Shown here piece by piece: positions 13,042-59,503 of a stretch of DNA of 64,000 nucleotides. Every line of letters starts with the position of its first letter. Within the stretch, counting starts at the first letter, position 1. The stretch spans positions 318,268 through 382,267 of the forward strand of contig OY969569.1 in the NCBI GenBank assembly GCA_963701185.1. Reading direction: 5' to 3'. Source of the stretch: Candidatus Gottesmanbacteria bacterium. GTDB taxonomy: Bacteria; Patescibacteriota; Microgenomatia; UBA10105; UBA927. The position numbers and the translations under genes were made by a program. The notes under the pieces were generated by a model. That model saw nothing but the letters and a program-made list of their open reading frames with translations, was not told the origin of the DNA and made no database searches.

Positions 13042-14151
13042 ATGACGACCTATTTCACTTCTGAATCCGTTGCCGCCGGCCACCCCGATAAAATTTGCGA
13101 TCAGATATCCGATGCCGTGTTGGATGCGGCACTGGAGATTGATCCGATGTCACGGGTCGCCGTTGAAACGCTGGTAACCGTCAACCGCGTGGTTATGGCG
13201 GGAGAAGTGACATGCCCCAAAAAACTTGACTACGAAGCGATTGCCAGAGGAGTCATAAAATCTTTGGGATACACAAAGGCAATCTATAACTTTACCCACA
13301 AATCACCCGTTTCCGTCTATATCCACGAGCAGTCGCCGGATATTGCTGTGGGCGTCAACGACGGCGGTGCCGGGGATCAGGGTATGATGTTCGGATATGC
13401 CTCCCGCGAAACAAAAGAATACATGCCCCTGCCGATCATTCTTGCGCACCGTCTGGTGCAAAAAATGGATAAGGCACGCGAGAAATCCATTCTCCCATTC
13501 CTTCGGCCGGACGGCAAATCAGAGGTGAAAGTGCTGTATGAAAACGGAAAACCGAAAGAAATCACAAGTGTTGTTATTGCCGTACCGCACAACCCTGACA
13601 TAACAAACGAAGAGTTGACGAGCAAACTCATTGAGACGGTTATTACGCCGGTTTTATCCGCATATCACTTTAAAACACCTTCCCGGGATTCTATTATCGT
13701 CAACGGCAGTAAAGGAAAATGGGAGATTGGCGGACCCGCCTCGGATACCGGAGTCACCGGCCGGAAAATTATCGTTGATACGTACGGCGCATTCGCGCGT
13801 CATGGAGGCGGCGCGTTCAGCGGCAAGGACCCCACGAAGGTTGACCGCAGCGGCGCCTACGCCTGCCGATACATTGCCAAAAACATCGTGTCCGCGGGGC
13901 TGGCTGACCGCGCAGAGGTACGTGTGGCGTATGTCATCGGACAACGGGAACCGATTGACCGCGACATAGAAACATTCGGAACGGAAAAGAAGAAACTATC
14001 CGTGATCGAAGATTTTGCATGGAACCTTCTGGATATGTCGGTGCCGGGAATTTTACAAGGCCTGAATCTTCGGCGTCCCATTTACCGGGAGACAGCCCGT
14101 TACGGCCATTTCGGGCGTGATAGCTTCCCGTGGGAAACGGTGATAGAATAG
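13042..14151 (+). CDS. metK: S-adenosylmethionine synthetase.
   Basis: The N-terminus is MTTYFTSESVAAGHPDKICDQISDAVLD, and GGGAFSGKDPTKVDRS is present. The track ORF starts 63 nt upstream inside the leader. Confidence 0.92.
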   Translation: MTTYFTSESVAAGHPDKICDQISDAVLDAALEIDPMSRVAVETLVTVNRVVMAGEVTCPKKLDYEAIARGVIKSLGYTKAIYNFTHKSPVSVYIHEQSPDIAVGVNDGGAGDQGMMFGYASRETKEYMPLPIILAHRLVQKMDKAREKSILPFLRPDGKSEVKVLYENGKPKEITSVVIAVPHNPDITNEELTSKLIETVITPVLSAYHFKTPSRDSIIVNGSKGKWEIGGPASDTGVTGRKIIVDTYGAFARHGGGAFSGKDPTKVDRSGAYACRYIAKNIVSAGLADRAEVRVAYVIGQREPIDRDIETFGTEKKKLSVIEDFAWNLLDMSVPGILQGLNLRRPIYRETARYGHFGRDSFPWETVIE

Positions 14152-14156
14152 GTGCG

Positions 14157-15305
14157 ATGAGAGACGAGCGGCCGCTGGCGGATATTCTTCGTCCCGCAAC
14201 ACTCAATGATGTTATCGGGCAGGAACAGCTTGTTGGTGCCAACGGTATTATCCGCAAACTCCTTCACACGGGATTCCTCCCATCCATGATTTTCTGGGGG
14301 CCTCCCGGATGCGGCAAAACAACGCTGGCCCGCATACTTGCAAAAAAACTCAAGCGGACATTTTATGAATTTTCGGCGGTTAACACAAAAATTACCGATA
14401 TCACAGCGGTTGTCGATAAAAAACCACTTATTTTTTTAGATGAAATTCATAGGTTTAATAAAGCCCAACAGGACAAACTTCTTCCATACGTAGAACGCGG
14501 AGAAATACTATTAATCGGCGCTACAACGGAAAACCCGTCATTTGAGGTTATTTCGCCTCTTTTATCCCGTTGCCGCGTGCTTGTGTTAAAACCCCTGACT
14601 GAGGCAGAACTTTCAAAAATCATTGATCGTGGACTTCTTTATCTCAAAAAATCAATGGATACAAAAGGCCGCGAATTTTTATTGGAAGTCGCAAACGGTG
14701 ATGCCCGCGCCCTTTTAACTATTCTTGAAATTGCAGCCACACTTAACCTACGAGGAGAGTCCTTGCAGGTTAAAGATATTGAAGAGGCGGCCCAGCGGAA
14801 AATGCTTCAGTACGATCAAACCGGCGATGAGCACTACAATACCATTTCCGCATTTATCAAAAGCATGCGGGCAAGCGATACGGACGCCTCCCTGTATTAT
14901 CTGGCAAGAATGGTGGCGGCAGGAGAAGACCCGCTAGTAATCGCGCGGCGCATGGTGGTGTTTGCATCGGAAGATATCGGGATTGCGCAACCCACGGCTC
15001 TGGTCGTTGCAAACACGGTGTTTGACGCATGCAACAAAATCGGCTACCCGGAATGTCAGGAAAATCTTGCTCACGGCGTGGTGTATTTATGTTTGGCAAA
15101 AAAAGACCGGAGTGCCTACGACGCATATATGGCGGCACTCGCGGATGTACAAAGATACGGCAACCTCCCGATTCCGCTGGTTATCCGCAACGCGCCGACG
15201 AAGCTTATGAAGGGATTGGGATACGGAAAAGGGTATGATAAATATACGAAAGAAAGTTTACTGCCGGATACGCTAAAAGGAAAAAAATATTTTCAAAGGG
15301 GGTGA
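14157..15305 (+). CDS. rarA: Replication-associated recombination protein A (MgsA/RarA AAA+ ATPase).
   Basis: Walker A is GPPGCGKTTLARI and Walker B/sensor is FLDEIHRFNKAQQD. Confidence 0.85.
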   Translation: MRDERPLADILRPATLNDVIGQEQLVGANGIIRKLLHTGFLPSMIFWGPPGCGKTTLARILAKKLKRTFYEFSAVNTKITDITAVVDKKPLIFLDEIHRFNKAQQDKLLPYVERGEILLIGATTENPSFEVISPLLSRCRVLVLKPLTEAELSKIIDRGLLYLKKSMDTKGREFLLEVANGDARALLTILEIAATLNLRGESLQVKDIEEAAQRKMLQYDQTGDEHYNTISAFIKSMRASDTDASLYYLARMVAAGEDPLVIARRMVVFASEDIGIAQPTALVVANTVFDACNKIGYPECQENLAHGVVYLCLAKKDRSAYDAYMAALADVQRYGNLPIPLVIRNAPTKLMKGLGYGKGYDKYTKESLLPDTLKGKKYFQRG

Positions 15306-17110: not shown

Positions 17111-18466
17111 ATGGATCTCTCAATTTTTAAAGATTATGACATTCGCGGTATATATCCGACGCAGATAAATGGAGACGTTGCCGCTGCCATCGCGCATGGA
17201 ATTGTCCGGAAGTTTCAACCGAAAAGCGTTGTTATCGGCAGGGATATGCGATTATCAGGTCCGGAACTAAAAGAAGCTCTAACGAAAACGTTTAGCGAGT
17301 TGGGAATCGATGTTTATGATATGGGCCTCGTAGGCACCGAAATGATGTCATTTGTCGCCGGAGCTTATCCATATGATCTCGTTATACAAATTTCTGCTTC
17401 TCATAATCCTCCGGAATATAACGGAATGAAAATGACACGGGGGGGCGCGGTTCCCGTCAGCGCGGACACAGGGCTCCGAGAAATCAGAGACCTTACCGCT
17501 CAGGGACCACTTCCGGCAGCCGCTGCCCGGGGGAAAATCCAATCACTGGATATCTACCCCGCATGGAAAGAAAAAATCCTATCACTGGTGGATGTGTCAA
17601 CAATTAAGGCGCTCAATGTCGTCGTCGATGCAGGAAACGGAATGGCGGGAAAATTGGCGCCGGCACTCTATGCAGGTTTACCAATTCAATTAACAACACT
17701 CTTTATGGATCTTGACGGAAGCTTTCCTAATCACGTGCCAAACCCGCTCATTGAATCCAATAATAAAACACTCATAGAAACGGTGACAGCCAAACACGCC
17801 GATATCGGGCTGACATTTGATGGAGATGCAGACCGCATGTTTTTAATTGACGATAAAGGCCGGTTTATTTCCGGTACGATAACGGCGGCAATGCTTGCCA
17901 GGTATTACCTCAAACAATTTCCCGGGTCCATGATTTTATACAATGCCATTTGCGGCAGAATTGTCCCCGAAACAATCAAAAAATATGGAGGAACAAGTAA
18001 ACGTGTACGTGTTGGATACAGTTATATCAAAGCCGCAATGAAAGAAACAAGTGCGGTGTTTTGTGGTGAACATTCCGGTCACTATTTTCACCGCGACTTT
18101 TTTAATTCAGAAACCGGTGTCGGTACGGCCCTCATGGTCATGAGTTTGCTGAGTCTCGACGGAAGAAAACTCTCTGAACTAGTTGATGAGCTGAATATCT
18201 ATCCCGCAAGCGGAGAAATTAATTTTATCGTTTCCGATATCCCTGCGGTCACACAGGCGATTAAAACCGGATTCCCGGATGCCCAGTCCATTGATGAGTT
18301 GGACGGAGTCAGTGTATGGTATAAGGAGTATTGGTTCAACGTCCGCGCAAGCAAAACCGAGCCCTTGCTTCGTTTGAATGTTGAGGCCGATACAAAAGAA
18401 ATTCTTGATGCAAAAACAAGTGAACTCGTTACAAAAATAGTTACGCTCGGAGGGAAACGAAAATGA
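17111..18466 (+). CDS. Phosphomannomutase/phosphoglucomutase.
   Basis: The active-site Ser loop is SASHNPPEYNGMK and the Mg loop is FDGDADR. Confidence 0.9.
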   Translation: MDLSIFKDYDIRGIYPTQINGDVAAAIAHGIVRKFQPKSVVIGRDMRLSGPELKEALTKTFSELGIDVYDMGLVGTEMMSFVAGAYPYDLVIQISASHNPPEYNGMKMTRGGAVPVSADTGLREIRDLTAQGPLPAAAARGKIQSLDIYPAWKEKILSLVDVSTIKALNVVVDAGNGMAGKLAPALYAGLPIQLTTLFMDLDGSFPNHVPNPLIESNNKTLIETVTAKHADIGLTFDGDADRMFLIDDKGRFISGTITAAMLARYYLKQFPGSMILYNAICGRIVPETIKKYGGTSKRVRVGYSYIKAAMKETSAVFCGEHSGHYFHRDFFNSETGVGTALMVMSLLSLDGRKLSELVDELNIYPASGEINFIVSDIPAVTQAIKTGFPDAQSIDELDGVSVWYKEYWFNVRASKTEPLLRLNVEADTKEILDAKTSELVTKIVTLGGKRK

Positions 18467-19506
18467 ACAGTCTTGATGATGTTGCGGCGATGAAGAAACA
18501 GGATCCGTCGGGAGTTTTAGGATCGACGGCGCTGTTTGCCGATCAGTGTGCGGCGGCGTGGGAAGAAAGTCGGAAAACCCTGTTTCCGCAGGAATATAAA
18601 AAAGTAAAAAATATTGTTGTCGCAGGGATGGGAGGCTCACGCTTTACCCCGAAAACCATCGGCGCGCTGTTCCGGAAATATATTAGCGTCCCGTATGAAA
18701 TCTGCGAGGACTATACGGTACCCGGCTATGTCAATGCCGACTCGCTGGTCATTTTATCCTCCTATTCCGGTACGACAGCGGAAGTAATATCCGCCGGAGA
18801 AGACGCAAAGAAGAAAGGTGCAAAAATTGCGGCGATTACGAGCAAAAGGATGGATTATCCTGGGTATTATTTCAGCCCCACATTGAACCCCTGCGGGCAA
18901 CCCAGGATCGGCGGGGGGTATTTATTATTAGGACACCTCGGACTTCTTTCAGCGTTAGGATTTGTTACGGTTAAAGACGATGTGGCAGCGGCAATTGCAT
19001 TCGCCAAGGAAATCGGAAAAAAATATGCGGCAGAAATTCCTGAAACGAATAACCCCGCAAAACAGCTTGCAATATTTCTGAAAGACAAACATCCGTTTAT
19101 TATTACAGCCGAATTCTTGAAAGGGTTCGGCAATGCATTCGCCAATCAGATAAATGAAACGGCAAAAATGATATCGGACTACCGCTACATTTCCGAACTG
19201 AACCATCATTTGTTGGAAGGACTATCCCACCCGGATACCATCCACCAAAACGGAGTATTTATATTCCTCTTATCGCATTGCTATAGCGAGCCGGTGCAAA
19301 AACGGTTCGCGATAACCCGCGACGTGGTGGCAAAACAGCATGTGGGTACGTACGATATAACGCTCACCGGTGCAAATAAGCTTTCACAGACCCTTGAGGC
19401 ATATACGCTCGCGGGATTTACGACGTTTTATCTTGGCATGCTCTATGACGTGGATCCCGTCGCCATTCCGTGGGTCGACTACTTTAAAGCCGAACTCGCT
19501 AAATAA
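18463..19506 (+). CDS. Bifunctional phosphoglucose/phosphomannose isomerase (SIS-domain, archaeal type).
   Basis: The SIS motif is VVAGMGGSRF. The length (347 aa) matches PGI/PMI. Confidence 0.7.
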   Translation: MNSLDDVAAMKKQDPSGVLGSTALFADQCAAAWEESRKTLFPQEYKKVKNIVVAGMGGSRFTPKTIGALFRKYISVPYEICEDYTVPGYVNADSLVILSSYSGTTAEVISAGEDAKKKGAKIAAITSKRMDYPGYYFSPTLNPCGQPRIGGGYLLLGHLGLLSALGFVTVKDDVAAAIAFAKEIGKKYAAEIPETNNPAKQLAIFLKDKHPFIITAEFLKGFGNAFANQINETAKMISDYRYISELNHHLLEGLSHPDTIHQNGVFIFLLSHCYSEPVQKRFAITRDVVAKQHVGTYDITLTGANKLSQTLEAYTLAGFTTFYLGMLYDVDPVAIPWVDYFKAELAK

Positions 19507-19528
19507 CCTGCAAGGACTCTCCTCGCAG
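19506..19528. repeat. REP-like palindromic repeat, copy 1, immediately 3' of the transposase gene.
   Basis: The sequence is acctgcaaggactctcctcgcag, a roughly 10-bp stem with a CTC loop. Confidence 0.8.
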
Positions 19529-19529
19529 A

Positions 19530-20186
19530 TTACTCAAGATCGAGCGCCTCATTAAGGATAGGTTTTATATCATCGAAAAGACTTTGTTCAACAAATGATT
19601 CATACGATAACTGGTCGTACGTACGGGAAAAATAGAATAATATCGGTGCGGGTTGCACCCAGGATTGCGTAAAATGATGAAGATAATTGCCATAGGACGA
19701 ATAGGCATATTCCTTCAACCTGCGAGGACTCTCCTTGTAGGATGATAACGACAAAGGATTTCGATGGATATATTTTGAAAGATAAATAAATTGGTACTCA
19801 CTGAGAATTTTGACAGCTTTGTATGGACCTTGAAAGAGCGGACCGAGCCGATGATAGTGGGTATTAAAATATCGAACGTATTTTGTGAGGAGAGAACGTA
19901 AAAAGTGATCCATGCCATGCTCCGTAGTTTGCTTGATGAGTAAATGAAAATGGTTCGGCATCAAGCAATAACAAAGAAGTTCAATATCTCCGAAGTAGTT
20001 TTTTAATTTTTTAGAGGGCGCCACCTGCAAGGACTCTCCTTGCAGGCTGAGGTAGATCTTGAGAAAAGAAAGAAATGTTTTGTAATCCTTGTCTTCCCGG
20101 AAAATAACGCCTTTATCTACACCACGATTATAAATATGATAGTGCGCGCCCGGCTCATACTCTTTGATAACATTTTTTGCAGGCAT
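19530..20186 (-). CDS. IS200/IS605-family HuH tyrosine transposase of the REP-associated (RAYT-like) kind, with two in-frame REP insertions.
   Basis: The HuH motif is LMPNHFHLL, the catalytic Tyr motif is SKYIHRNP, and GPLFQGPY is present. The start is taken at the ATG (MPAKN); the TTG at 20219 lies inside a repeat copy. Confidence 0.7.
   Translation of the reverse strand: MPAKNVIKEYEPGAHYHIYNRGVDKGVIFREDKDYKTFLSFLKIYLSLQGESLQVAPSKKLKNYFGDIELLCYCLMPNHFHLLIKQTTEHGMDHFLRSLLTKYVRYFNTHYHRLGPLFQGPYKAVKILSEYQFIYLSKYIHRNPLSLSSYKESPRRLKEYAYSSYGNYLHHFTQSWVQPAPILFYFSRTYDQLSYESFVEQSLFDDIKPILNEALDLE
19718..19741. repeat. REP-like repeat, copy 2, inside the transposase ORF and in frame.
   Basis: The sequence is acctgcgaggactctccttgtagg. 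On the minus strand it translates to SYKESPRRL. Confidence 0.8.
20023..20046. repeat. REP-like repeat, copy 3, inside the transposase ORF and in frame.
   Basis: The sequence is acctgcaaggactctccttgcagg. It translates to LQGESLQV. Confidence 0.8.
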
Positions 20187-20211
20187 AGGATAAGTATACA
20201 ACCTCTTACAA

Positions 20212-20235
20212 ACCTGCAAGGACTCTCCTTGTAGG
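20212..20235. repeat. REP-like repeat, copy 4, at the 5' flank of the transposase gene.
   Basis: The sequence is acctgcaaggactctccttgtagg. Confidence 0.8.
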
Positions 20236-20280
20236 TTAAAGCCTCTTGCGCTTACCGTGTAAATTCCGCATACTCATTAT

Positions 20281-30222: not shown

Positions 30223-32199
30223 ATGAAATTTACCCTGCATAGTGATTTTAAGCCGACAGGAGATCAGCCGGAGGCAATTGCCGCGCTTATCAAAAATCTG
30301 GAGAATAAAAAAGCCGAACAGGTGCTTCTGGGCGTAACGGGATCCGGAAAAACGTTTACCCTGGCAAACGTTATTGCAAAAGTGCAGAAACCCACGCTTA
30401 TCATTTCCCACAACAAGACGCTTGCGGCCCAGCTGTATCAGGAATTCCGCGATTTTTTCCCGAAAAACGCCGTCTCGTATTTCGTTTCGTATTACGATTA
30501 TTACCAGCCGGAGGCCTACATTCCGACAACGGACACCTATATTGAAAAAGAAACGGAGATCAACGAAGAAATCGATAAATTGCGGCTTGCGGCAACCACG
30601 AATATCCTCACGAGAAAAGATACCATCATCGTTGCCTCCGTTTCCTGCATCTACAACATCGGCTCGCCCAAGGAATACGGAAATTTTGTTCTGGAGCTCG
30701 CGCCCGGCATGAAAGTCGCCCGCAAAAGTATTTTTGACCGCCTGGTACAACTCCAGTATGAAAGAAACGACTACGGCTTCCATCGGAGCACATTCCGCGT
30801 ACGGGGAGACACGATAGATATTTTCCCTGCATACGAGGATACGGCGATACGGTTAATTTATACGTCAGATCAATTAAACCAAATTATAAAATTAGACCCG
30901 CTCACAGGTAAAACGATAGAGGTTCTCCCCGGCACCGTTATTTATCCTGCCAAACATTACATGACCAATCCCGCCTCCTATAAAAGCGTGTTTAAGCAAA
31001 TTGAGGCGGACATGCGGGCACAGGTTAAAAAATTCAAGTCCGAAGGAAAACTGATTGAGGCGCAGCGCATCGAGCAGAAAGTCACCTATGACCTCGAGAT
31101 GATCAATGAAATGGGGTACGTCAACGGCATCGAAAACTATTCCCGTTACTTTGACGGAAGACAGCCCGGCCAGCCGCCGTATTCTCTTATGGATTATTTT
31201 AAAGAAGCGGCCGGCGACGACTGGCTCCTGTGTATCGACGAGTCGCATATGACGGTTCCGCAGGTCCGCGGCATGTATAACGGCGACCGCACGCGCAAAC
31301 AGACGCTGATTGATTACGGATTCAGGCTTCCGGCGGCCCTGGATAACCGGCCGCTGCGATTTGATGAGTTTATGCGAAACATCCCCCAGACCATTTATGT
31401 CTCCGCCACCCCTGCCGACTGGGAAATGGATCGCGTTAAACGCGACGGGCTCGTAGAACAGCTCGTGAGGCCGACCGGATTATTGGATCCTATCGTCTCC
31501 GTGCGTCCTGTTTCGGGTCAAATTGATGATTTGTTTAAGGAAATTACGGTGCGGGTTGCAAGAAAAGAACGTGTGCTTGTTACCACGCTTACCAAACAGA
31601 TGGCAGAGGATTTATCTGAATTTTTAGCCGCGCGCGATATTAACGTTCACTATCTGCATTCAGAAGTTCTTACGCTGGACCGGTCAGATATTTTGGATGA
31701 CTTACGCAGCGGCAAATACGATGTCATCGTCGGTGTCAATCTGCTTCGAGAAGGGTTAGATCTCCCTGAAGTATCTCTTGTTGCCATTTTGGATGCCGAT
31801 AAAGAGGGATTTCTGCGGAGCAGAACAAGCCTCGTTCAGACGATGGGCAGGGCAGCCCGTCACGTCTCGGGTGAAGTTATTTTATACGCCGATACGATTA
31901 CGGATTCCATTGCCGCCGCCCTGGATGAAGTGAGACGCCGCCGCCAAGCGCAGGAAATCTACAATAAAAAACACGGCATTATGCCGGAAAGTATTCATAA
32001 GCCGATCCGGAACCGGTTAGTTGAAAAAAAGGAAGAACAGATAGAATTGTTGCCCGTCGAATCCATGACGCCGCTGGATAAAAAGAAATACATCGCACGC
32101 CTTACGAAAGAAATGCGCCAGGCGTCGCGTGATTTAAACTTCGAGCTGGCAGCCCAACTGCGGGACCATATCGGCACCCTACAAGGAGAGTCCTCGTAG
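30223..32199 (+). CDS. uvrB: Excinuclease ABC subunit B.
   Basis: There is a helicase fold (GVTGSGKT), a beta-hairpin region and a C-terminal UVR motif. The last 7 codons and the stop are supplied by a REP copy. Confidence 0.95.
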   Translation: MKFTLHSDFKPTGDQPEAIAALIKNLENKKAEQVLLGVTGSGKTFTLANVIAKVQKPTLIISHNKTLAAQLYQEFRDFFPKNAVSYFVSYYDYYQPEAYIPTTDTYIEKETEINEEIDKLRLAATTNILTRKDTIIVASVSCIYNIGSPKEYGNFVLELAPGMKVARKSIFDRLVQLQYERNDYGFHRSTFRVRGDTIDIFPAYEDTAIRLIYTSDQLNQIIKLDPLTGKTIEVLPGTVIYPAKHYMTNPASYKSVFKQIEADMRAQVKKFKSEGKLIEAQRIEQKVTYDLEMINEMGYVNGIENYSRYFDGRQPGQPPYSLMDYFKEAAGDDWLLCIDESHMTVPQVRGMYNGDRTRKQTLIDYGFRLPAALDNRPLRFDEFMRNIPQTIYVSATPADWEMDRVKRDGLVEQLVRPTGLLDPIVSVRPVSGQIDDLFKEITVRVARKERVLVTTLTKQMAEDLSEFLAARDINVHYLHSEVLTLDRSDILDDLRSGKYDVIVGVNLLREGLDLPEVSLVAILDADKEGFLRSRTSLVQTMGRAARHVSGEVILYADTITDSIAAALDEVRRRRQAQEIYNKKHGIMPESIHKPIRNRLVEKKEEQIELLPVESMTPLDKKKYIARLTKEMRQASRDLNFELAAQLRDHIGTLQGESS

Positions 32200-32202
32200 G
32201 GT
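32178..32202. repeat. REP-like repeat, copy 5 (opposite orientation), forming the 3' end of uvrB.
   Basis: The sequence is cctacaaggagagtcctcgtagg. It encodes TLQGESS and the stop. Confidence 0.8.
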
Positions 32203-38196: not shown

Positions 38197-38220
38197 ACCT
38201 ACGAGGACTCTCCTTGTAGG
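38197..38220. repeat. REP-like repeat, copy 6, directly after the uvrC stop.
   Basis: The sequence is acctacgaggactctccttgtagg. Confidence 0.8.
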
Positions 38221-44905: not shown

Positions 44906-44976
44906 CTGGGAGACTAGGATTCGAACCTAGATTCCAAGATCCAAAGTCTTGTGTCCTACCGTTGAACGATCTCCCA
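44906..44976 (-). tRNA. tRNA-Gln (anticodon TTG).
   Basis: Reading the minus strand, the acceptor is TGGGAGA/TCTCCCA, the anticodon loop is CTTTGGA and the T-arm is GGTTCGAATCC. Confidence 0.8.
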
Positions 44977-44986
44977 AATTATTTTG

Positions 44987-45058
44987 AGCGGCGTACGGGA
45001 ATTGAACCCGTTACCTTCTCCTTGGCAAGGAGACATTCTACCGGTGAACTAACGCCGC
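44987..45058 (-). tRNA. tRNA-Gly (anticodon GCC).
   Basis: The acceptor is GCGGCGT/ACGCCGC, the anticodon loop is TTGCCAA and the T-arm is GGGTTCAATTCCC. Confidence 0.85.
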
Positions 45059-45072
45059 ACCATTAAACGCGG

Positions 45073-45145
45073 TGCCGAGACTAGGAGTTGCACCCAGATA
45101 ACATGTTTTTCAGACATGCGCCTTGACTACCTCGGCCATCTCGGC
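45073..45145 (-). tRNA. tRNA-Phe-like (anticodon GAA), atypical and possibly degenerate.
   Basis: The acceptor is GCCGAGA/TCTCGGC with discriminator A. The anticodon stem-loop is CATGT-CTGAAAA-ACATG. It has a non-canonical 3-bp D-stem with an 11-nt loop, and a T-loop TGCAACT with G at position 55. Confidence 0.45.
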
Positions 45146-56108: not shown

Positions 56109-56190
56109 TGCAGACGACAGGAGTTGAACCTGCACCCCTCACGGGATACGCACCTCAAGCGTACGCGTATGCCAATTCCGCCACGTCTGC
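56109..56190 (-). tRNA. tRNA-Leu (anticodon GAG).
   Basis: It is type II. The acceptor is GCAGACG/CGTCTGC, the anticodon loop is TTGAGGT, it has a long variable arm, and the T-arm is GGTTCAACTCC. Confidence 0.85.
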
Positions 56191-56256
56191 GTAAGAATGT
56201 ATTGTAGCATATTTGCACCTTACCCCTGATTCCTCTATAATCTATAGCCTATAGCT

Positions 56257-56622
56257 ATGAGTAGGGAGCATCCTGTCGCGCTAAATCCGATTACTATTGA
56301 TACTGACTCACACCGGTCAACGAAGGCGGGGTTTTGCACGGAAAGCGGATTGATGTCCAATCTGATTCTTGAAGAAGGCATTGATACAGACGATACATAT
56401 ACGTTCATATATCCCATGAAGCTCAACTATCCTGCCAGCATAATCGTAAAAGCTCAGGGAGTGTTTGAATTACGAAACGCGCAACCATGGCTCGAAAATG
56501 CAACTGTCTGGTACCAAGACAAGCCGCCACGATCAGGAGGTTCATTTTTTGTAACAATTATGGAGGGAGTCAAAGTGACAGCGCCGGACGGAACGGTAAC
56601 AATTGTTCAAATTCTGGACTGA
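56257..56622 (+). CDS. Hypothetical protein.
   Basis: It is 121 aa with no motif. Confidence 0.3.
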   Translation: MSREHPVALNPITIDTDSHRSTKAGFCTESGLMSNLILEEGIDTDDTYTFIYPMKLNYPASIIVKAQGVFELRNAQPWLENATVWYQDKPPRSGGSFFVTIMEGVKVTAPDGTVTIVQILD

Positions 56623-56632
56623 TCATCGGATA

Positions 56633-57607
56633 TCACCGGTACGCCGATCCCACAAATGTTATCTGTTCGTCCTTCACGGTTTCCAACCAGGAAAGCAAGC
56701 TGGCACCCGTTCTGCCTCCCGGCCGGAGACGGTAGAGGAAATATCTGTGTGTCTGGTACTGATCCGCGCCGGGAATGGTGGAAACCGCGCTGGTAAATCC
56801 TGCGGCCGCAATTGCCTGAATTGCCGGCACATCAAACGCACCATACGGATACGCAAACGACACAACCGGTTTGCCGATCAGGGCTTCTAGTGTTTTTTTA
56901 CTTTGATCAACCTGATACACAAGCTCCTTTTGCGATCTTCCTTTGAGCCATGCATGATTGACCGTATGCGCCCCGATTTCCACCAAACCTTCATCAGCAA
57001 TTTGACTCACTTGCCAGGCAAACATATTGTTGGGATAATCCAAAAACCCGGAAATAATATATGCTGTCGCTTTGGCATGATACTTTTTAAGAATCGGGTA
57101 CACGTCCGTGTAGAAATCCCGGTAGCCGTCATCAAACGTCAGGACAATCGGTTTGGCAGGCAACGGGATTTTCCCGTTTAATGCCTCGGCAAGCTCTGCA
57201 TTCGTCATAAACGTGTACCCGGCATCCGCAAGCGTTTTTACTTCCTCCTCAAACGTATACGGGGAGAGACTCAGCGACTGCCGGATCGTATCCCCTTTGT
57301 CCTTGACGTATTCTACATAGTGATACATAAGAATCGGCACGCGGATCATTTTCGGGAGAGTCTTAATCACAAAGGTATCTTTTGAATTTGCGCCCAAAAC
57401 GCCGCCTTCACTCATCCATTGGCGGACATCAGCAGGCACAGTATTTTGCTGTACTTCAATGCGCTCATCACCCAATAATTTCCGATACGCTATGTTCTGT
57501 TTATGGCCGGCGCCTATAGAGACAAATCCCAAAAATACCATGACAACGCCGGCTACTAGTGCCGTTTGCCAAGAAGTACTAAAAGAAATCCATTTTCGTC
57601 TCGCCAT
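56633..57607 (-). CDS. Polysaccharide deacetylase (NodB homology domain).
   Basis: The motifs are TFDDGY and HTVNH, with an N-terminal TM helix. The start is taken at the internal Met because the track start lies inside tRNA-Leu. Confidence 0.8.
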   Translation of the reverse strand: MARRKWISFSTSWQTALVAGVVMVFLGFVSIGAGHKQNIAYRKLLGDERIEVQQNTVPADVRQWMSEGGVLGANSKDTFVIKTLPKMIRVPILMYHYVEYVKDKGDTIRQSLSLSPYTFEEEVKTLADAGYTFMTNAELAEALNGKIPLPAKPIVLTFDDGYRDFYTDVYPILKKYHAKATAYIISGFLDYPNNMFAWQVSQIADEGLVEIGAHTVNHAWLKGRSQKELVYQVDQSKKTLEALIGKPVVSFAYPYGAFDVPAIQAIAAAGFTSAVSTIPGADQYQTHRYFLYRLRPGGRTGASLLSWLETVKDEQITFVGSAYR

Positions 57608-57610
57608 GTG

Positions 57611-57692
57611 TGCCCAGAGGGAGACTCGAACTCCCAAGGGTTTCCCCATACGCTCCTGAAGCGTACGCGTCTACCAATTTCGCCATCCGGGC
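57611..57692 (-). tRNA. tRNA-Leu (anticodon CAG).
   Basis: It is type II. The acceptor is GCCCGGA/TCTGGGC, the anticodon loop is TTCAGGA and the T-arm is GAGTTCGAGTCTC. Confidence 0.85.
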
Positions 57693-57734
57693 ATAAGGAA
57701 ATTATACCAGATATGCTGTACAATAGGGACAAAT

Positions 57735-57820
57735 GCCGAGGTGGTGGAATGGTAGACACTCGGGCCTTAAGAGCCCGTGAAGCTAATTACTTCGTGCGAG
57801 TCCGAGTCTCGCCCTCGGCA
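57735..57820 (+). tRNA. tRNA-Leu (anticodon TAA).
   Basis: It is type II. The acceptor is GCCGAGG/CCTCGGC, the anticodon loop is CTTAAGA, and it has a long variable arm. Confidence 0.85.
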
Positions 57821-57821
57821 C

Positions 57822-57895
57822 CGGGGTGTGGCGCAATTGGCTAGCGCGCATCGTTTGGGACGATGAGGTTGTGAGTTCAAGTCTCACCACCCCGA
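57822..57895 (+). tRNA. tRNA-Pro (anticodon TGG).
   Basis: The acceptor is CGGGGTG/CACCCCG, the anticodon loop is TTTGGGA and the T-arm is GAGTTCAAGTCTC. It starts 1 nt after tRNA-Leu(TAA). Confidence 0.85.
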
Positions 57896-57903
57896 CAAAA
57901 AGT

Positions 57904-58710
57904 ATGTTTCAGGACTACAAAAAACTCATTGATGCGTACCTGCTGAAATTTCTGTCGGAAAAAACGCCGGCGCTTGCGGACGTTAATTCGCTGGGAAGCG
58001 ATCTTATCGACCGGATAAAACCAATCGTCACGGCCGGAAAAACCATCCGCGGATCACTGGCCCTCCTCTCCTACTGTTTTACCAATGAAAAACCATCGGA
58101 AGATGCGGTAAAGCTCGCCGCCGCCATGGAACTTATGCAAACCGCCCTCGTCATCCATGATGACATCATGGATAAAGATAACGAGCGCCGCGGGATTGCG
58201 TCACTGCATATGCAATACCATAGTGAGGCGCTTGCAATGTGCGCGGGCGATATTCTCTTTTTCATGGCATTTGAACTGATCGGATCGATCAAAACCGATG
58301 CAACAACCCTGGGCAGGATCGTCCGTCTCATCGGGCGCGAATATCAATCCGCCGGCGTGGCTCAAATGGCGGATGTAGCAAAAACTGCAAAAACAAAATG
58401 GGAAATATTCAATCTTTACACATATAAAACCGCCCGATACACATTCGCGGTTCCGCTCATGCTAGGCGCAACACTGGCAGGAACAACAAAAGACATGCTG
58501 AAATATTTGGAATCATACGGTGTTGCAACCGGAATACTGTTCCAAATTCAGGACGACAAACTTGATCATGAACTGAATCCATTTACCGATCACGACATCG
58601 CGGGATATGCAAAAGCGGCGGAGGAATCGCTTAAGCGGTTACCCATCCAAAACAACCAGAAACCAATTCTTCTGGATCTGCTAGAATTCGTTCAGCATCG
58701 GAAAAAATGA
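57904..58710 (+). CDS. Polyprenyl (geranylgeranyl/farnesyl) diphosphate synthase.
   Basis: The first DDxxD is LVIHDDIMDKD and the second is FQIQDDKLD. The start is taken at MFQDYKK because the track start lies inside tRNA-Pro. Confidence 0.85.
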   Translation: MFQDYKKLIDAYLLKFLSEKTPALADVNSLGSDLIDRIKPIVTAGKTIRGSLALLSYCFTNEKPSEDAVKLAAAMELMQTALVIHDDIMDKDNERRGIASLHMQYHSEALAMCAGDILFFMAFELIGSIKTDATTLGRIVRLIGREYQSAGVAQMADVAKTAKTKWEIFNLYTYKTARYTFAVPLMLGATLAGTTKDMLKYLESYGVATGILFQIQDDKLDHELNPFTDHDIAGYAKAAEESLKRLPIQNNQKPILLDLLEFVQHRKK

Positions 58711-59129
58711 AAAAAATATTTATTATTTTCGCAGGTATTCTCCTACTATTTACTCTGTACTATTATTTCCGCCACCCGATAGGGAAAAGGGCGATGATAA
58801 ACGGACACACGATCAGGTTGCTCCTTGCGGTGACGGAATCGGAGAAAGAAAAAGGCTTGGGATACAGGGATTCGCTCGCCGAGGGCACCGGAATGCTTTT
58901 TATCTACGCCCGTCCGGAAAGGTACGGGTTCTGGATGAAAGGCATGCGGTTCCCGCTGGATTTTATCTGGATCAACGGCAATACCGTCGCGGATCTGACA
59001 GAAAACGTTCAAACCAGCGCTCCTGCATTTGCGCCGCGCGTTCCTGTCGATAAGGTGCTTGAGGTCAATGCCGGTGTCGTTGAATCCTTAGGTGTCCGCG
59101 TAGGCGACCCTGTCCGTTTTACCGACTAA
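58707..59129 (+). CDS. DUF192-domain protein.
   Basis: The motifs are GLGYRDSLAEGTGMLFIY and FWMKGMRFPLDFIWIN. Confidence 0.7.
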   Translation: MKKIFIIFAGILLLFTLYYYFRHPIGKRAMINGHTIRLLLAVTESEKEKGLGYRDSLAEGTGMLFIYARPERYGFWMKGMRFPLDFIWINGNTVADLTENVQTSAPAFAPRVPVDKVLEVNAGVVESLGVRVGDPVRFTD

Positions 59130-59131
59130 TG

Positions 59132-59203
59132 CGCCCTTGGAGGGAATTGAACCTTCATCTAACCCTTAGAAGGGGCTTGCTCTATCCGTTGAGCTACAAG
59201 GGC
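59132..59203 (-). tRNA. tRNA-Arg (anticodon TCT).
   Basis: The acceptor is GCCCTTG/CAAGGGC, the D-arm is TAGCTCAACGGATAGAGC, the anticodon loop is CTTCTAA and the T-arm is GGTTCAATTCC. Confidence 0.85.
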
Positions 59204-59252
59204 TTAACATTACTGATCAGCCATTTAATATATTTTTTACTCTTATACGATT

Positions 59253-59387
59253 TTAATTTCCTTTCTCTTTCTCTCGCTTGTTTTTCCGTACTATATACTT
59301 CTTTATAAACAAGCGCTCTAAATTATTCGTAGATCCTATATAAAATCTGTCATTTTGTTCATTATGCAATATATAAAGGAAAAACAT
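59253..59387 (-). pseudogene. GIY-YIG nuclease-domain fragment.
   Basis: It reads MFFLYILHNEQNDRFYIGSTNNLERL, the GIY-YIG core only (about 45 aa). The longer track ORF runs into tRNA-Gly. Confidence 0.35.
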
Positions 59388-59431
59388 AATGCCCCTCCGA
59401 TTACATCGGGGTTGAGCTACAGGAGCCGCTG

Positions 59432-59503
59432 AGCGGCATAGGGGAATCGAACCCCTCACATCAACTTTGGAAAAGTTGCGTTCTACCAATGAACTAATGC
59501 CGC
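59432..59503 (-). tRNA. tRNA-Gly (anticodon TCC).
   Basis: The acceptor is GCGGCAT/ATGCCGC, the anticodon loop is TTTCCAA and the T-arm is GGGTTCGATTCCC. Confidence 0.85.

What the first reader, a model, noticed from the sequence alone, without database searches (positions are those of the whole stretch)
19506..20235. RAYT-like HuH transposase carrying two REP hairpins in-frame inside its own ORF
There are four copies of a 24-nt palindromic element, ACCTGC[A/G]AGGACTCTCCT[T/C]G[C/T]AGG, with a 10-bp stem and a CTC loop. They sit at 19506, 19718, 20023 and 20212. Two flank an IS200/RAYT-type transposase gene, which has the HuH motif LMPNHFHLL and the catalytic Tyr motif SKYIHRNP. The other two lie inside the coding sequence. 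Because each repeat is exactly 24 nt (8 codons), both internal copies keep the reading frame. One translates to LQGESLQV, between the beta-strand region and the HuH motif. The other translates to SYKESPRRL, directly after the YxxxNP catalytic motif. REP/RAYT pairs have been described mainly in Proteobacteria, with the REPs outside the gene. A RAYT whose own ORF has absorbed its cognate REPs in-frame is unusual, and it is in a genome that otherwise looks like a small-genome (CPR-like) lineage. It may be a domesticated or self-targeted copy, or the mRNA may form strong hairpins that regulate translation.
Basis: partly seen in the sequence, partly recalled or inferred. Interest (0 to 1): 0.7.

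Follow-up and report, generated by a model that had tools for sequence, protein, structure and literature searches.

The report
Transposase gene embedding its own hairpins
A single-copy, RAYT-like DNA-cutting enzyme gene in a tiny-genome (CPR/Microgenomates) bacterium carries four copies of its own 23-base palindrome, two of them translated inside the gene, and this layout persists across a large gene family even where the palindrome sequence has changed, which ties an enzyme's protein sequence to its probable DNA target.

Summary
Four copies of CCTRCRAGGA-CTC-TCCTYGYAGG lie at 19507, 19719, 20024 and 20213. Two flank a 218-aa Y1 HuH gene (19530..20186, minus strand) and two lie in-frame inside it. 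Three more copies are dispersed in the window.

The layout is family-wide: one hairpin 25-75 nt upstream of the ATG, one in the loop before the HuH strands, one in the linker after the catalytic Tyr helix, and one abutting the stop codon. About 24 independent loci (40-100% protein identity) have all four sites. Different clades carry different palindromes at the same positions. Site 2 is read in two different phases. A palindrome-free homologue has a linker of the same length.

Dispersed copies match each genome's own Y1-linked palindrome about 40-fold over non-cognate controls. More than half lie in-frame inside other genes, where they replace about 8 codons and do not add them.

Best reading: this is a REP/RAYT-like ("REPtron") system of Microgenomates whose cognate hairpins are also written into the enzyme's own ORF and kept uniform by concerted evolution. 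I class it as a new variant of a known kind. Why the in-ORF copies are kept, and how copies spread, remain inferred.

The parts
19530..20186 (-). Y1 HuH (RAYT-like) gene, 218 aa. It has the HuH motif (H-F-H in LMPNHFHLL) and the catalytic Tyr in SKYIHRNP. The stop codon TAA is at 19530-19532.
   Evidence: (H80, H82 and Y140 invariant in 23 homologues)
20213..20235 (.). 5'-flank cognate hairpin. Its near end lies 26 nt upstream of the ATG, at the position where a -35 box or operator would sit.
   Evidence: Present 25-75 nt upstream of the ATG in most homologous loci.
20194..20199 (-). GTATAC(T) motif 7 nt upstream of the ATG, a putative -10 box for a near-leaderless transcript (inferred).
   Evidence: The motif is conserved 10-15 nt before the start codon in 8 of 13 loci. 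The sigma-70 consensus scan gave no call here.
20024..20046 (.). In-ORF hairpin, site 1. It encodes LQGESLQ(V) in the low-confidence loop between helix alpha1 and the HuH beta-hairpin.
   Evidence: (third-codon-position identity 0.76 against 0.40 for the rest of the gene)
19719..19741 (.). In-ORF hairpin, site 2. It encodes YKESPRR(L) in the linker after the catalytic-Tyr helix.
   Evidence: (third-position identity 0.62)
19507..19529 (.). 3'-flank cognate hairpin. It exactly fills the gap between the stop codons of the Y1 gene and the convergent PGI-like gene (18463..19506).
   Evidence: The 3' copy starts directly after the stop codon in 9 of 13 loci and within 10 nt in 11.
14747..14769 (.). 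Dispersed copy, in-frame in the MgsA/RarA gene (14130..15305), encoding LRGESLQV. It replaces about 7 ancestral codons.
32178..32200 (.). Dispersed copy that forms the C-terminus and stop codon of UvrB (…TLQGESS*).
38198..38220 (.). Dispersed copy starting directly after the UvrC stop codon.

Best explanation
This is a REP/RAYT-like ('REPtron'-like) system of Microgenomates-type CPR bacteria. A single-copy Y1 HuH tyrosine enzyme is paired with a cognate 23-nt hairpin-forming palindrome.

Shown: the gene is always framed by the palindrome, with one copy over its promoter region and one abutting its stop codon. In many clades the same palindrome is also written in-frame into two flexible surface loops of the protein. 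The same palindrome is dispersed through the genome at roughly 35-50 copies per Mb, mostly at gene 3' ends or in-frame inside genes. All copies at a locus change in concert when the palindrome changes between lineages.

Inferred: by analogy with TnpA_REP and IS200/IS605 TnpA, the enzyme binds the hairpin extruded in single-stranded DNA and nicks next to its foot with the conserved Tyr and HuH-bound metal. It then re-joins the strand to another hairpin foot. Repeated hairpin-for-hairpin exchange would homogenise existing copies (concerted evolution) and occasionally overwrite a loop-coding stretch of about 24 nt elsewhere, which would give the length-neutral patches seen. The copies in and around its own gene would be the most frequently rewritten because the enzyme acts preferentially in cis. 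The promoter-proximal and in-ORF copies probably also let the enzyme damp its own expression.
For: Enzyme. The protein matches Pfam Y1_Tnp. The model has pLDDT 80, and its best structural matches are ISDra2 TnpA, IS608 TnpA and E. coli RAYT 4er8, the last with the widest coverage. The HuH histidines and Tyr140 are invariant in the 23 aligned homologues. The subfamily has 186 clusters at 50% identity with E<=1e-30.

Layout. The four-site layout occurs in 11 independent genome-derived loci and in 14 of the 81 loci of the window-plus-metagenome set (window included), about 24 independent loci in all. A further 12 loci have 5'+site2+3', 6 have 5'+site1+3', and 15 have only the flanks.

Co-diversification. 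Different clades carry different palindromes at the same positions, for example CCTTTCGGGAGACTCCCGAAAGG, CCTGCAGGGCCAGGCCCTGCAGG and TTGACAGGTATCATACCTGTCAA. Within the window-type palindrome, the loop class (GAG, CAG or GAC) is shared by the copies of a locus and differs between loci.

DNA-level selection or homogenisation. Third-codon-position identity is 0.76 and 0.62 at the two sites against 0.40 elsewhere. Site 2 is read in two phases (YKxSPRRL or PTRxLLVG). ORFs are intact in 21 of 22 loci. Both sites fall in the two lowest-pLDDT loops.

Cognate dispersal. The window has 3 extra copies against 0 expected. In 336 kb of flanks there are 12 cognate copies against 0.3 non-cognate. The dispersed loop class matches the Y1-linked class in the genomes with several copies (11/13, 4/5, 3/4, 3/3).

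REP-like placement. 34 copies abut a gene 3' end and 1 abuts a 5' end. CT is enriched about 3.3-fold at the 3' flank on both strands, and TnpA_REP cleaves at CT (PMC8266576).

Domestication. There is one copy per contig, and the PPDK|Y1|PGI neighbourhood is kept in relatives at about 80% identity.
Against: There is no biochemistry, so binding, cleavage and strand transfer are inferred from homology. The NCBIfam RAYT equivalog score is far below its cutoff (31 against 80). The palindrome is a symmetric dyad without the asymmetric GTAG or CGTC tag that defines classical REPs. More than half of the copies are inside ORFs.

Filled and empty orthologous sites differ by 0 or +1 residue instead of +8. 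No known Y1 transposition reaction produces that, so the 'hairpin exchange' step is my own hypothesis. Empty sites are not detectably hairpin-like (n=9), which weakens it.

The loop-class match between Y1-linked and dispersed copies fails in several genomes with 1-2 copies, and in JAYEMX, where 13 of 14 dispersed copies belong to another class. Many clades have only the flanking copies, so the in-ORF copies are not essential to the enzyme. Whole-genome copy numbers could not be measured.
Confidence: 0.62

Rival explanations
1. By-product only. The enzyme disperses its hairpin as in the main explanation, but the in-ORF copies have no role. On this view they are repeated cis-biased hits that survive only in the two loops of the protein that tolerate them.
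For: Occupancy varies among clades (XXXX 14, X.XX 12, XX.X 6, X..X 15). Site 1 lies in a variable-length loop with partial or tandem copies in some homologues. The same element lands in loops of many unrelated proteins. Both sites are low-confidence loops.
Against: Within the window's clade (>=50% identity) both sites are occupied in essentially every locus, while the MgsA site is occupied in about one third of the orthologues. The in-ORF copies track every change of palindrome.
Confidence: 0.3
2. Autonomous IS200-like insertion sequence. On this view the unit hairpin-gene-hairpin (about 730 bp) is itself the transposon, with the flanking palindromes as its ends, and the solo palindromes are footprints or MITE-like derivatives.
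For: The flanking hairpins travel with the gene into different neighbourhoods (L004, P0019 and the window). The unit size is similar to IS200. The protein passes the Pfam Y1_Tnp threshold.
Against: There is one copy per contig or genome fragment, and no second copy in the window. Synteny is conserved at about 80% identity. The same symmetric palindrome sits at both ends, where an IS would have distinct left and right ends. The protein is 218 aa with a RAYT-like C-terminal extension, where IS200 TnpA is about 150 aa.
Confidence: 0.08
3. Host cis-element. On this view the palindrome is a binding site for a dimeric dsDNA-binding host protein, or a bidirectional terminator or mRNA-stabilising hairpin, and the Y1 gene is merely regulated by it.
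For: The element has perfect dyad symmetry. It is strongly placed at gene 3' ends and between convergent stop codons. The 5' copy overlaps the promoter region. Arm positions 4 and 6 vary with little covariation.
Against: Density at the Y1 gene is about 80-fold higher than elsewhere. The palindrome co-diversifies with Y1 clades. More than half of the copies are inside ORFs. There is no T-tract, and the scan called no terminator at the palindromes. There is no Rfam match.
Confidence: 0.08
4. Uptake-signal-like molecular drive. On this view the palindrome is preferentially taken up or recombined and spreads among related genomes by allele replacement, as DUS and USS do.
For: In-ORF copies are length-neutral replacements. 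Bearers are scattered in the MgsA tree. The window's copies lie in or next to MgsA, UvrB and UvrC (compare PMC2346458).
Against: There are no isolated half-sites or graded near-matches. Density is about 35-50 per Mb, against the hundreds to thousands of uptake sequences per genome reported in PMC2346458 (roughly 1000 per Mb, from my own knowledge). This view does not explain the fixed four-site layout at the Y1 gene or its co-diversification. Host genes are diverse.
Confidence: 0.04
5. mRNA hairpins. On this view the in-ORF palindromes act as RNA structures that throttle translation or set the stability of the Y1 mRNA.
For: In the window, site 1 is a perfect 10-bp hairpin in the mRNA. The mean RNA MFE of the Y1-linked copies is about -12 kcal/mol.
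Against: On the sense strand the in-ORF copies have 18 A.C mismatches against 2 G.U. The antisense strand folds better in 20 of 29 imperfect copies. The window's site 2 does not fold on the sense strand, at least as ssDNA. Loop orientation flips between sites. The flanking copies lie outside the likely transcript.
Confidence: 0.08

Closest known systems
REP/RAYT 'REPtrons' (TnpA_REP), especially group 3 such as Stenotrophomonas maltophilia (23-nt REP, perfect 8-bp stem, 3-nt loop)
   Same: Both have a Y1 HuH enzyme with a C-terminal extension, a single-copy gene flanked by its cognate hairpins, and the same hairpin dispersed in the genome, mostly at gene 3' ends. In both, the palindrome is specific to each enzyme clade. 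The hairpin size and shape are almost the same as REP_Sm. In vitro the loop base matters for recognition (PMC8266576), which fits the lineage-specific loop classes here. CT next to the hairpin is enriched.
   Different: Here the cognate hairpins are also embedded in-frame at two fixed loops of the enzyme's own ORF. There is no asymmetric GTAG or CGTC tag. More than 50% of the dispersed copies are intragenic and length-neutral. Copy density is lower. The host is CPR, not Proteobacteria. The NCBIfam RAYT equivalog score is below its cutoff.
IS200/IS605 TnpA insertion sequences (IS200, IS608, ISDra2)
   Same: They share the fold and catalytic motifs and give the best Foldseek E-values. Both have hairpins at both ends of a unit of about 0.7 kb. 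The known mechanism is ssDNA hairpin recognition.
   Different: The gene here is not multicopy. Its two ends carry identical symmetric palindromes, where these elements have distinct left and right ends. It has solo dispersed hairpins, a longer protein and in-ORF hairpins.
Intragenic REPs and Rickettsia palindromic elements (Di Nocera 2013, PMC3733652; review PMC10969869)
   Same: Both involve palindromic repeats translated in-frame inside housekeeping genes, including uvrA/uvrB-type repair genes and tRNA synthetases. Both place repeats within 20 bp of the 3' ends of convergent ORFs.
   Different: Those elements are described as insertions that add residues (20-80 aa for dimers or RPEs of about 150 bp). 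Here a single 23-nt unit overlays about 8 codons with a length change of 0 or +1. None of those reports places the repeat inside the cognate transposase gene.
DNA uptake sequences (DUS/USS)
   Same: Both have in-frame copies in ORFs without length change, inverted pairs at gene ends, and lineage 'dialects'.
   Different: DUS/USS are short non-palindromic cores at about 1 per kb and are not linked to a Y1 gene. Here only complete palindromes occur, at about 1 per 20-30 kb, and they are concentrated at the Y1 gene.

Membership tests
RAYT / TnpA_REP (REPtron) | Y1 HuH fold with a HuH motif and one catalytic tyrosine | tested here: met
   Pfam Y1_Tnp scores 30.5 bits against a cutoff of 23. H80, H82 and Y140 are invariant. 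The AF2 model matches 4er8, 2xo6 and 2a6o.
RAYT / TnpA_REP (REPtron) | Reaches the curated NCBIfam equivalog NF047646 (REP_Tyr_transpos) cutoff | tested here: not met
   31.2 bits against a cutoff of 80, and only residues 68-147 align.
RAYT / TnpA_REP (REPtron) | Gene flanked by palindromes that are also the genome's dispersed repeat, specific to the enzyme clade | tested here: met
   Flanking copies occur in most loci. The window has 3 dispersed copies against 0 expected. In 336 kb of flanks there are 12 cognate against 0.3 non-cognate copies. The palindromes are clade-specific.
RAYT / TnpA_REP (REPtron) | Single copy per genome, vertically inherited | tested here: inconclusive
   There is one copy in the window and one per contig. 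Synteny is kept at about 80% identity. Whole genomes could not be examined.
RAYT / TnpA_REP (REPtron) | REP is a hairpin with a conserved tetranucleotide tag (GTAG or CGTC) 5' of its foot | tested here: not met
   The dyad is symmetric. GTAG or GCAG occurs only inside the 3' arm and is variable. The flank consensus is Y-T-A-A on both strands.
RAYT / TnpA_REP (REPtron) | Repeats are extragenic | tested here: not met
   By approximate gene calls, 109 of 195 copies lie inside ORFs. This was confirmed for MgsA, UvrB and the Y1 gene itself.
RAYT / TnpA_REP (REPtron) | Enzyme binds and cleaves the single-stranded REP at CT next to the hairpin | not testable with these tools
   The only hint is that CT is 18-20% of 3' flank dinucleotides against a 5.6% background.
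IS200/IS605 insertion sequence | Several near-identical copies per genome | tested here: inconclusive
   There is no second copy in 64 kb or in any fetched locus set of one genome, but complete genomes were not scanned.
IS200/IS605 insertion sequence | Distinct subterminal imperfect hairpins at the left and right ends, with guide tetranucleotides | tested here: not met
   The same near-perfect palindrome sits at both ends and inside the gene.
RPE / MITE-type in-frame intragenic elements | An element of about 100-150 bp whose insertion adds a peptide module | tested here: not met
   The unit is 23 nt. Filled and empty orthologous sites differ by 0 or +1 aa in most well-aligned cases.
DNA uptake sequences | High density of a short core that also occurs singly, with graded near-matches | tested here: not met
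   There are no isolated half-sites. Density is about 0.36 per 10 kb. Empty sites show no excess similarity.

The most novel reading that the evidence does not exclude
The Y1 enzyme is a hairpin-cassette exchanger. It swaps a stretch of about 23-24 nt for its cognate hairpin without changing length, and so rewrites short loop-coding patches genome-wide. The hairpins in its own promoter, ORF and terminator are obligatory cis-sites that couple enzyme specificity, self-regulation and hairpin homogenisation. That would be a new reaction outcome for HuH Y1 enzymes. It would also be a natural system in which a protein's sequence is partly dictated by its own DNA recognition site.
Probability: 0.15. 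Interest if true: 0.88.

Novelty: new variant of a known kind. Interest (0 to 1): 0.72.

Why it matters
How REPs spread, and why single-copy RAYTs are kept, are open questions even in E. coli and Pseudomonas. This family has at least 186 clusters at 50% identity in CPR bacteria, and it offers an unusually informative natural experiment for three reasons.

First, the cognate hairpin is fixed at four defined positions of the gene, so enzyme-hairpin co-evolution can be read directly from sequence across many clades.

Second, two of the sites are translated. Changes in the DNA target therefore force changes in two protein loops, and selection on the DNA can be separated from selection on the peptide, as with the two reading phases at site 2.

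Third, the dispersed copies mostly overwrite coding sequence without changing its length. That constrains any model of the mobilisation chemistry, and it is a source of short peptide variation in essential proteins of minimal genomes.

It also extends REP/RAYT-type systems to the Candidate Phyla Radiation.

Tried and rejected
(1) Wobble asymmetry as a clue to the folding strand. Over all copies G.T and A.C are balanced (27 against 26). The sense-strand A.C excess in the in-ORF copies (18 against 2) is explained by coding preference (Tyr-Lys…Arg-Arg). It argues against an mRNA hairpin but does not identify a DNA strand.

(2) 'Proto-site' idea, that empty orthologous sites are already quasi-palindromic or resemble the element. 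This is not supported (median percentiles about 0.4, n=9).

(3) Uptake-sequence model. I rejected it as the main explanation because there are no half-sites, the density is low, and the element is tied to the Y1 gene.

(4) Repair-gene bias of host genes. The window's three copies fit it, but a census of 75 host genes is diverse (aaRS, YchF, CobA, MgsA, RecJ, helicases). I did not run a control set.

(5) Rfam gathering scan of the window. It found only 11 tRNAs.

(6) Sigma-70 and terminator consensus scan around the gene. It gave nothing above shuffles at the palindromes.

(7) Source record of the window. It could not be retrieved.

(8) Monophyly of palindrome-bearing MgsA alleles. The NJ tree scatters them, but the tree is star-like and no support values were computed. 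Recurrent gain and allele exchange therefore remain unresolved.

(9) Literature. Eight searches found no description of REPs inside a RAYT ORF or of RAYT/REP systems in CPR. The library is incomplete, so prior description cannot be excluded.
Full report
**Observation.** It also occurs at 14747, 32178 and 38197. That is seven matches with at most 2 mismatches, against none in 100 dinucleotide-preserving shuffles. The repeated unit is a 23-nt palindrome, CCTRCRAGGA-NNN-TCCTYGYAGG, with a 10-bp stem and a 3-nt loop. As single-stranded DNA the + strand copies fold at -4.6 to -11.3 kcal/mol. There are no isolated half-sites in the window. The ORF on the minus strand contains LMPNHFHLL, SKYIHRNP, LQGESLQV and SYKESPRRL as described. 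Comparison with homologues puts the start at the ATG at 20186 (MPAKN), giving 218 aa. The 3' copy (19507-19529) exactly fills the space between the stop codon of this gene and that of the convergent PGI-like gene.

**The protein.** It passes the Pfam Y1_Tnp threshold (30.5 bits against 23). It is far below the NCBIfam RAYT equivalog cutoff (31 against 80). An AlphaFold model built on 23 homologues (pLDDT 80, pTM 0.81) matches ISDra2 TnpA, IS608 TnpA and the E. coli REP-associated transposase 4er8. The last of these covers the most of the model (TM 0.50/0.64 over 182 columns). The HuH histidines and Tyr140 are invariant in the alignment. The subfamily is large: 186 clusters at 50% identity with E<=1e-30 and 5,591 with E<=1e-10. 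Named relatives are Collierbacteria, Microgenomates and Gottesmanbacteria. The source contig is 995 kb.

**Not an insertion private to this copy.** Homologues at 58-84% identity have the same length and carry LQGESLK and YKESPRRL at the same positions, and they carry the palindrome in their DNA. In loci fetched for three homologues, and in Y1 loci recovered from a GTDB-wide scan for the motif, the layout is the same. One palindrome lies 35-76 nt upstream of the ATG. One lies at nt ~140-180 in phase 2. One lies at nt ~430-490. One begins 0-6 nt after the stop codon in most loci.

The layout is kept even where the genomic neighbourhood differs. L004 sits between a XerC-like gene and CTP synthase, whereas the window, L001 and L002 share PPDK|Y1|PGI.

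Third-codon-position identity among 11 genes is 0.76 at site 1 and 0.62 at site 2, against 0.40 for the rest of the gene. In one clade (L008, L027, L110, L121, L117) the site-2 palindrome is read in phase 0 (PTRxLLVGY, 12-aa linker). Elsewhere it is read in phase 1 (YKESPRRL, 15-aa linker). A palindrome-free homologue (L038, 41% identity) has a 14-aa linker there, and a longer unrelated segment at site 1. So the DNA is what is conserved, not the peptide, and the palindromes overlay existing loops. They are not clean 8-codon additions. Both segments fall in the two lowest-confidence loops of the model. One lies between helix alpha1 and the HuH beta-hairpin, and the other just after the catalytic-Tyr helix.

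**Concerted evolution and turnover.** Within the window-type palindrome there are three loop classes (GAG/CTC, CAG/CTG, GAC/GTC). The copies at one Y1 locus always share a class, and the class differs between loci in both protein clades.

A metagenome scan with the protein alignment returned 80 more loci at 38-83% identity. In these, different clades carry different palindromes at the same four positions. Examples are CCTTTCGGGAGACTCCCGAAAGG (L129), CCTGCAGGGCCAGGCCCTGCAGG (L131), TGACAGGGTCTCGCCCTGTCA (L167) and TTGACAGGTATCATACCTGTCAA (L205).

Occupancy in that set plus the window was as follows:
- all four sites: 14 loci
- 5'+site 2+3': 12 loci
- 5'+site 1+3': 6 loci
- flanks only: 15 loci
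- the rest: partial or undetected

The palindromes are diverged relatives that share an RGG-N5-7-CCY centre (my reading of the listed sequences). Single-linkage clustering gives 5 families among the four-site loci and 11 overall. The aligned proteins show clade-specific, palindrome-encoded peptides in the same two loops, and 21 of 22 ORFs are intact. Together with the genome-derived set, about 24 independent loci have all four sites.

**The dispersed copies.** Nearly all are from Microgenomates-type MAGs, often with several contigs per MAG. I analysed 195 unique copies with approximate gene calls:
- 109 lie inside ORFs, in all three phases
- 34 abut a gene 3' end
- 1 abuts a gene 5' end
- 51 are otherwise intergenic

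In the window the three dispersed copies are in-frame in MgsA/RarA, form the C-terminus and stop codon of UvrB, and directly follow the UvrC stop codon.

Each genome's dispersed copies match its own Y1-linked palindrome. In 336 kb of flanks there are 12 cognate copies, against 0.3 expected from non-cognate palindromes. The loop class agrees in the genomes with several copies (11/13, 4/5, 3/4, 3/3). It disagrees in several genomes with one or two copies, and in one MAG whose only recovered Y1 fragment is divergent. Density is about 0.36 per 10 kb in flanks, against four copies in 0.75 kb at the gene. The flank consensus is Y-T-A-A on both strands, with CT enriched about 3.3-fold.

**Replacement, not insertion.** In MgsA the palindrome-bearing alleles (…TLNLRGESLQVKD…) and the palindrome-free alleles (…TLT-KKKILSVSD…) differ by one residue. 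At the DNA level a 24-nt patch stands where an unrelated 21 nt stands in the empty alleles. The empty form resembles E. coli RarA (GKRVL) and is therefore ancestral.

Across other genes with well-aligned flanks, filled and empty sites mostly differ by 0 or +1 residue. This holds for L075/L026, L055 against four orthologues, L104 against two, L066/L107 and L100/L060. A few cases differ by +4, -3 or +12. Empty sites are neither hairpin-prone nor similar to the element.

Palindrome-bearing MgsA alleles are scattered in an NJ tree built with the patch masked. That tree is star-like and has no support values, so recurrent gain at one site and allele exchange both remain possible.

**Flanks of the gene.** The 5' palindrome is followed by a conserved GTATAC(T) 10-15 nt before the start codon in most window-type loci. 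I read this as a -10 box for a near-leaderless transcript. That would put the palindrome at the -35/operator position. This is an inference, and the consensus scan gave no call there.

**Explanation.** What is shown is a Y1 HuH enzyme with intact catalytic residues and a cognate, clade-specific hairpin. The hairpin flanks the gene, is embedded in it, and is dispersed in the genome with a REP-like preference for gene 3' ends. All copies evolve in concert.

This is the logic of REP/RAYT 'REPtrons' (PMC5581495, PMC8266576). The hairpin is nearly the same size and shape as the S. maltophilia group-3 REP, for which the loop base is critical and cleavage is at CT.

What is inferred is the chemistry: binding of the extruded hairpin in ssDNA, nicking at its foot, and strand transfer. 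I also propose that repeated hairpin-for-hairpin exchange explains both the homogenisation and the length-neutral patches. That step is untested, and the lack of hairpin character at empty sites weakens it.

Why the in-ORF copies persist is unresolved. Their near-universal occupancy, and their tracking of palindrome changes within the window's clade, suggest a cis role such as self-regulation. Their absence from many other clades suggests that they can be dispensable by-products of cis-biased activity.

**Comparison with what is known.** Intragenic REPs, their frequent occurrence in uvrA/uvrB-type and tRNA-synthetase genes, and REPs lying within 20 bp of convergent ORF ends were described by Di Nocera et al. 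2013 (PMC3733652). Rickettsia palindromic elements are the classic in-frame case (PMC10969869).

Four things are new here, as far as eight literature searches could tell:
- the cognate hairpins sit at fixed in-frame positions inside the transposase gene itself
- those positions persist through turnover of the palindrome sequence and through a change of reading phase
- the intragenic copies are length-neutral
- the system occurs in CPR bacteria

The system fails three RAYT/REP criteria: the GTAG tag, extragenic location and the NCBIfam cutoff. It meets the functional-logic criteria. I therefore file it as a new variant of a known kind, not as a member of the RAYT family sensu stricto.

**Rivals.** An autonomous IS200-like element is unlikely because the gene is single-copy and syntenic and has identical symmetric ends. 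A host dsDNA-binding site or terminator is unlikely because of the co-diversification with Y1 and the in-ORF copies. An uptake-signal-like drive is unlikely because there are no half-sites, the density is low, and the element is linked to the Y1 gene. mRNA hairpins are unlikely because of the sense-strand A.C mismatches and the orientation flips.

Noticed in passing
window 14130-15305, and orthologues P0121-P0240 (alignment A2): The MgsA/RarA lid-domain loop is polymorphic for the palindrome patch among orthologues at about 80% identity. Eight of the 24 sampled carry it, always in the same register. One (P0125) carries an expanded patch, LRGESLPRRQAGL, which looks like about 1.5 copies. Bearers are not monophyletic in a rough NJ tree.
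   Followed up: partly
L145 5001-5702 and L165 5001-5699 (site-2 region of their Y1 genes): These clades have a different cognate palindrome (TAGCTTCGCAAGGCC.GGCCTTGCGAAGCTA), present only in the flanks. Yet the L145 protein reads SYKEIPSRIL at site 2, which resembles the window-type palindrome peptide SYKESPRRL. This may be a decayed relic of an earlier palindrome, or the coding sequence from which the window-type palindrome arose.
   Followed up: no
L157, L160, L162, L164, L176, L181, L182, L191, L195, L198 (5' and/or 3' flanks of the Y1 gene): In several distant clades the flanking element is a doublet of two inverted copies, for example AGGGTCAGACCCTCGCGAGGGTCTGACCCT. This resembles the REPIN organisation known from Pseudomonas.
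   Followed up: no
L138 5001-5681: This Y1 gene has all four palindromes but an internal stop or frameshift near the C-terminal third. It may be a pseudogene or a sequencing error.
   Followed up: no
window 20236-20280, and the same region in L001, L002 and L057: There is a conserved GCGCAAG motif, with conserved surrounding sequence, in the short divergent intergenic region between the Y1 5' hairpin and the PPDK/PEP-synthase start codon. It may be a regulatory element of the PPDK gene.
   Followed up: no
L004 7757-9958: A XerC/XerD-type integrase gene is interrupted by an intein with a LAGLIDADG homing-endonuclease domain, directly upstream of the Y1 gene in that genome.
   Followed up: no
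window 44906-45145 and 56109-59503: There are two tRNA gene clusters. Ten of the window's 11 tRNAs lie in them, and there are no other Rfam families at gathering threshold.
   Followed up: no
L007, L009, L013, L014 and about 40 other loci from the genome-contig scan: Many TPA-assembled MAGs titled 'uncultured Pseudomonadales' or 'Gammaproteobacteria' carry the Microgenomates-type palindrome and Y1 gene. The record titles are probably taxonomic mislabels.
   Followed up: no
L006-L122, host genes of in-ORF copies (alignment A3): The same protein families repeatedly host the palindrome in different genomes: YchF GTPase (4), class-I aminoacyl-tRNA synthetases (Leu, Arg, Met; 3-4 each), CobA/BtuR (3), MgsA, RecJ and ComEA-like proteins. 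This suggests either inherited sites or recurrent permissive sites.
   Followed up: partly
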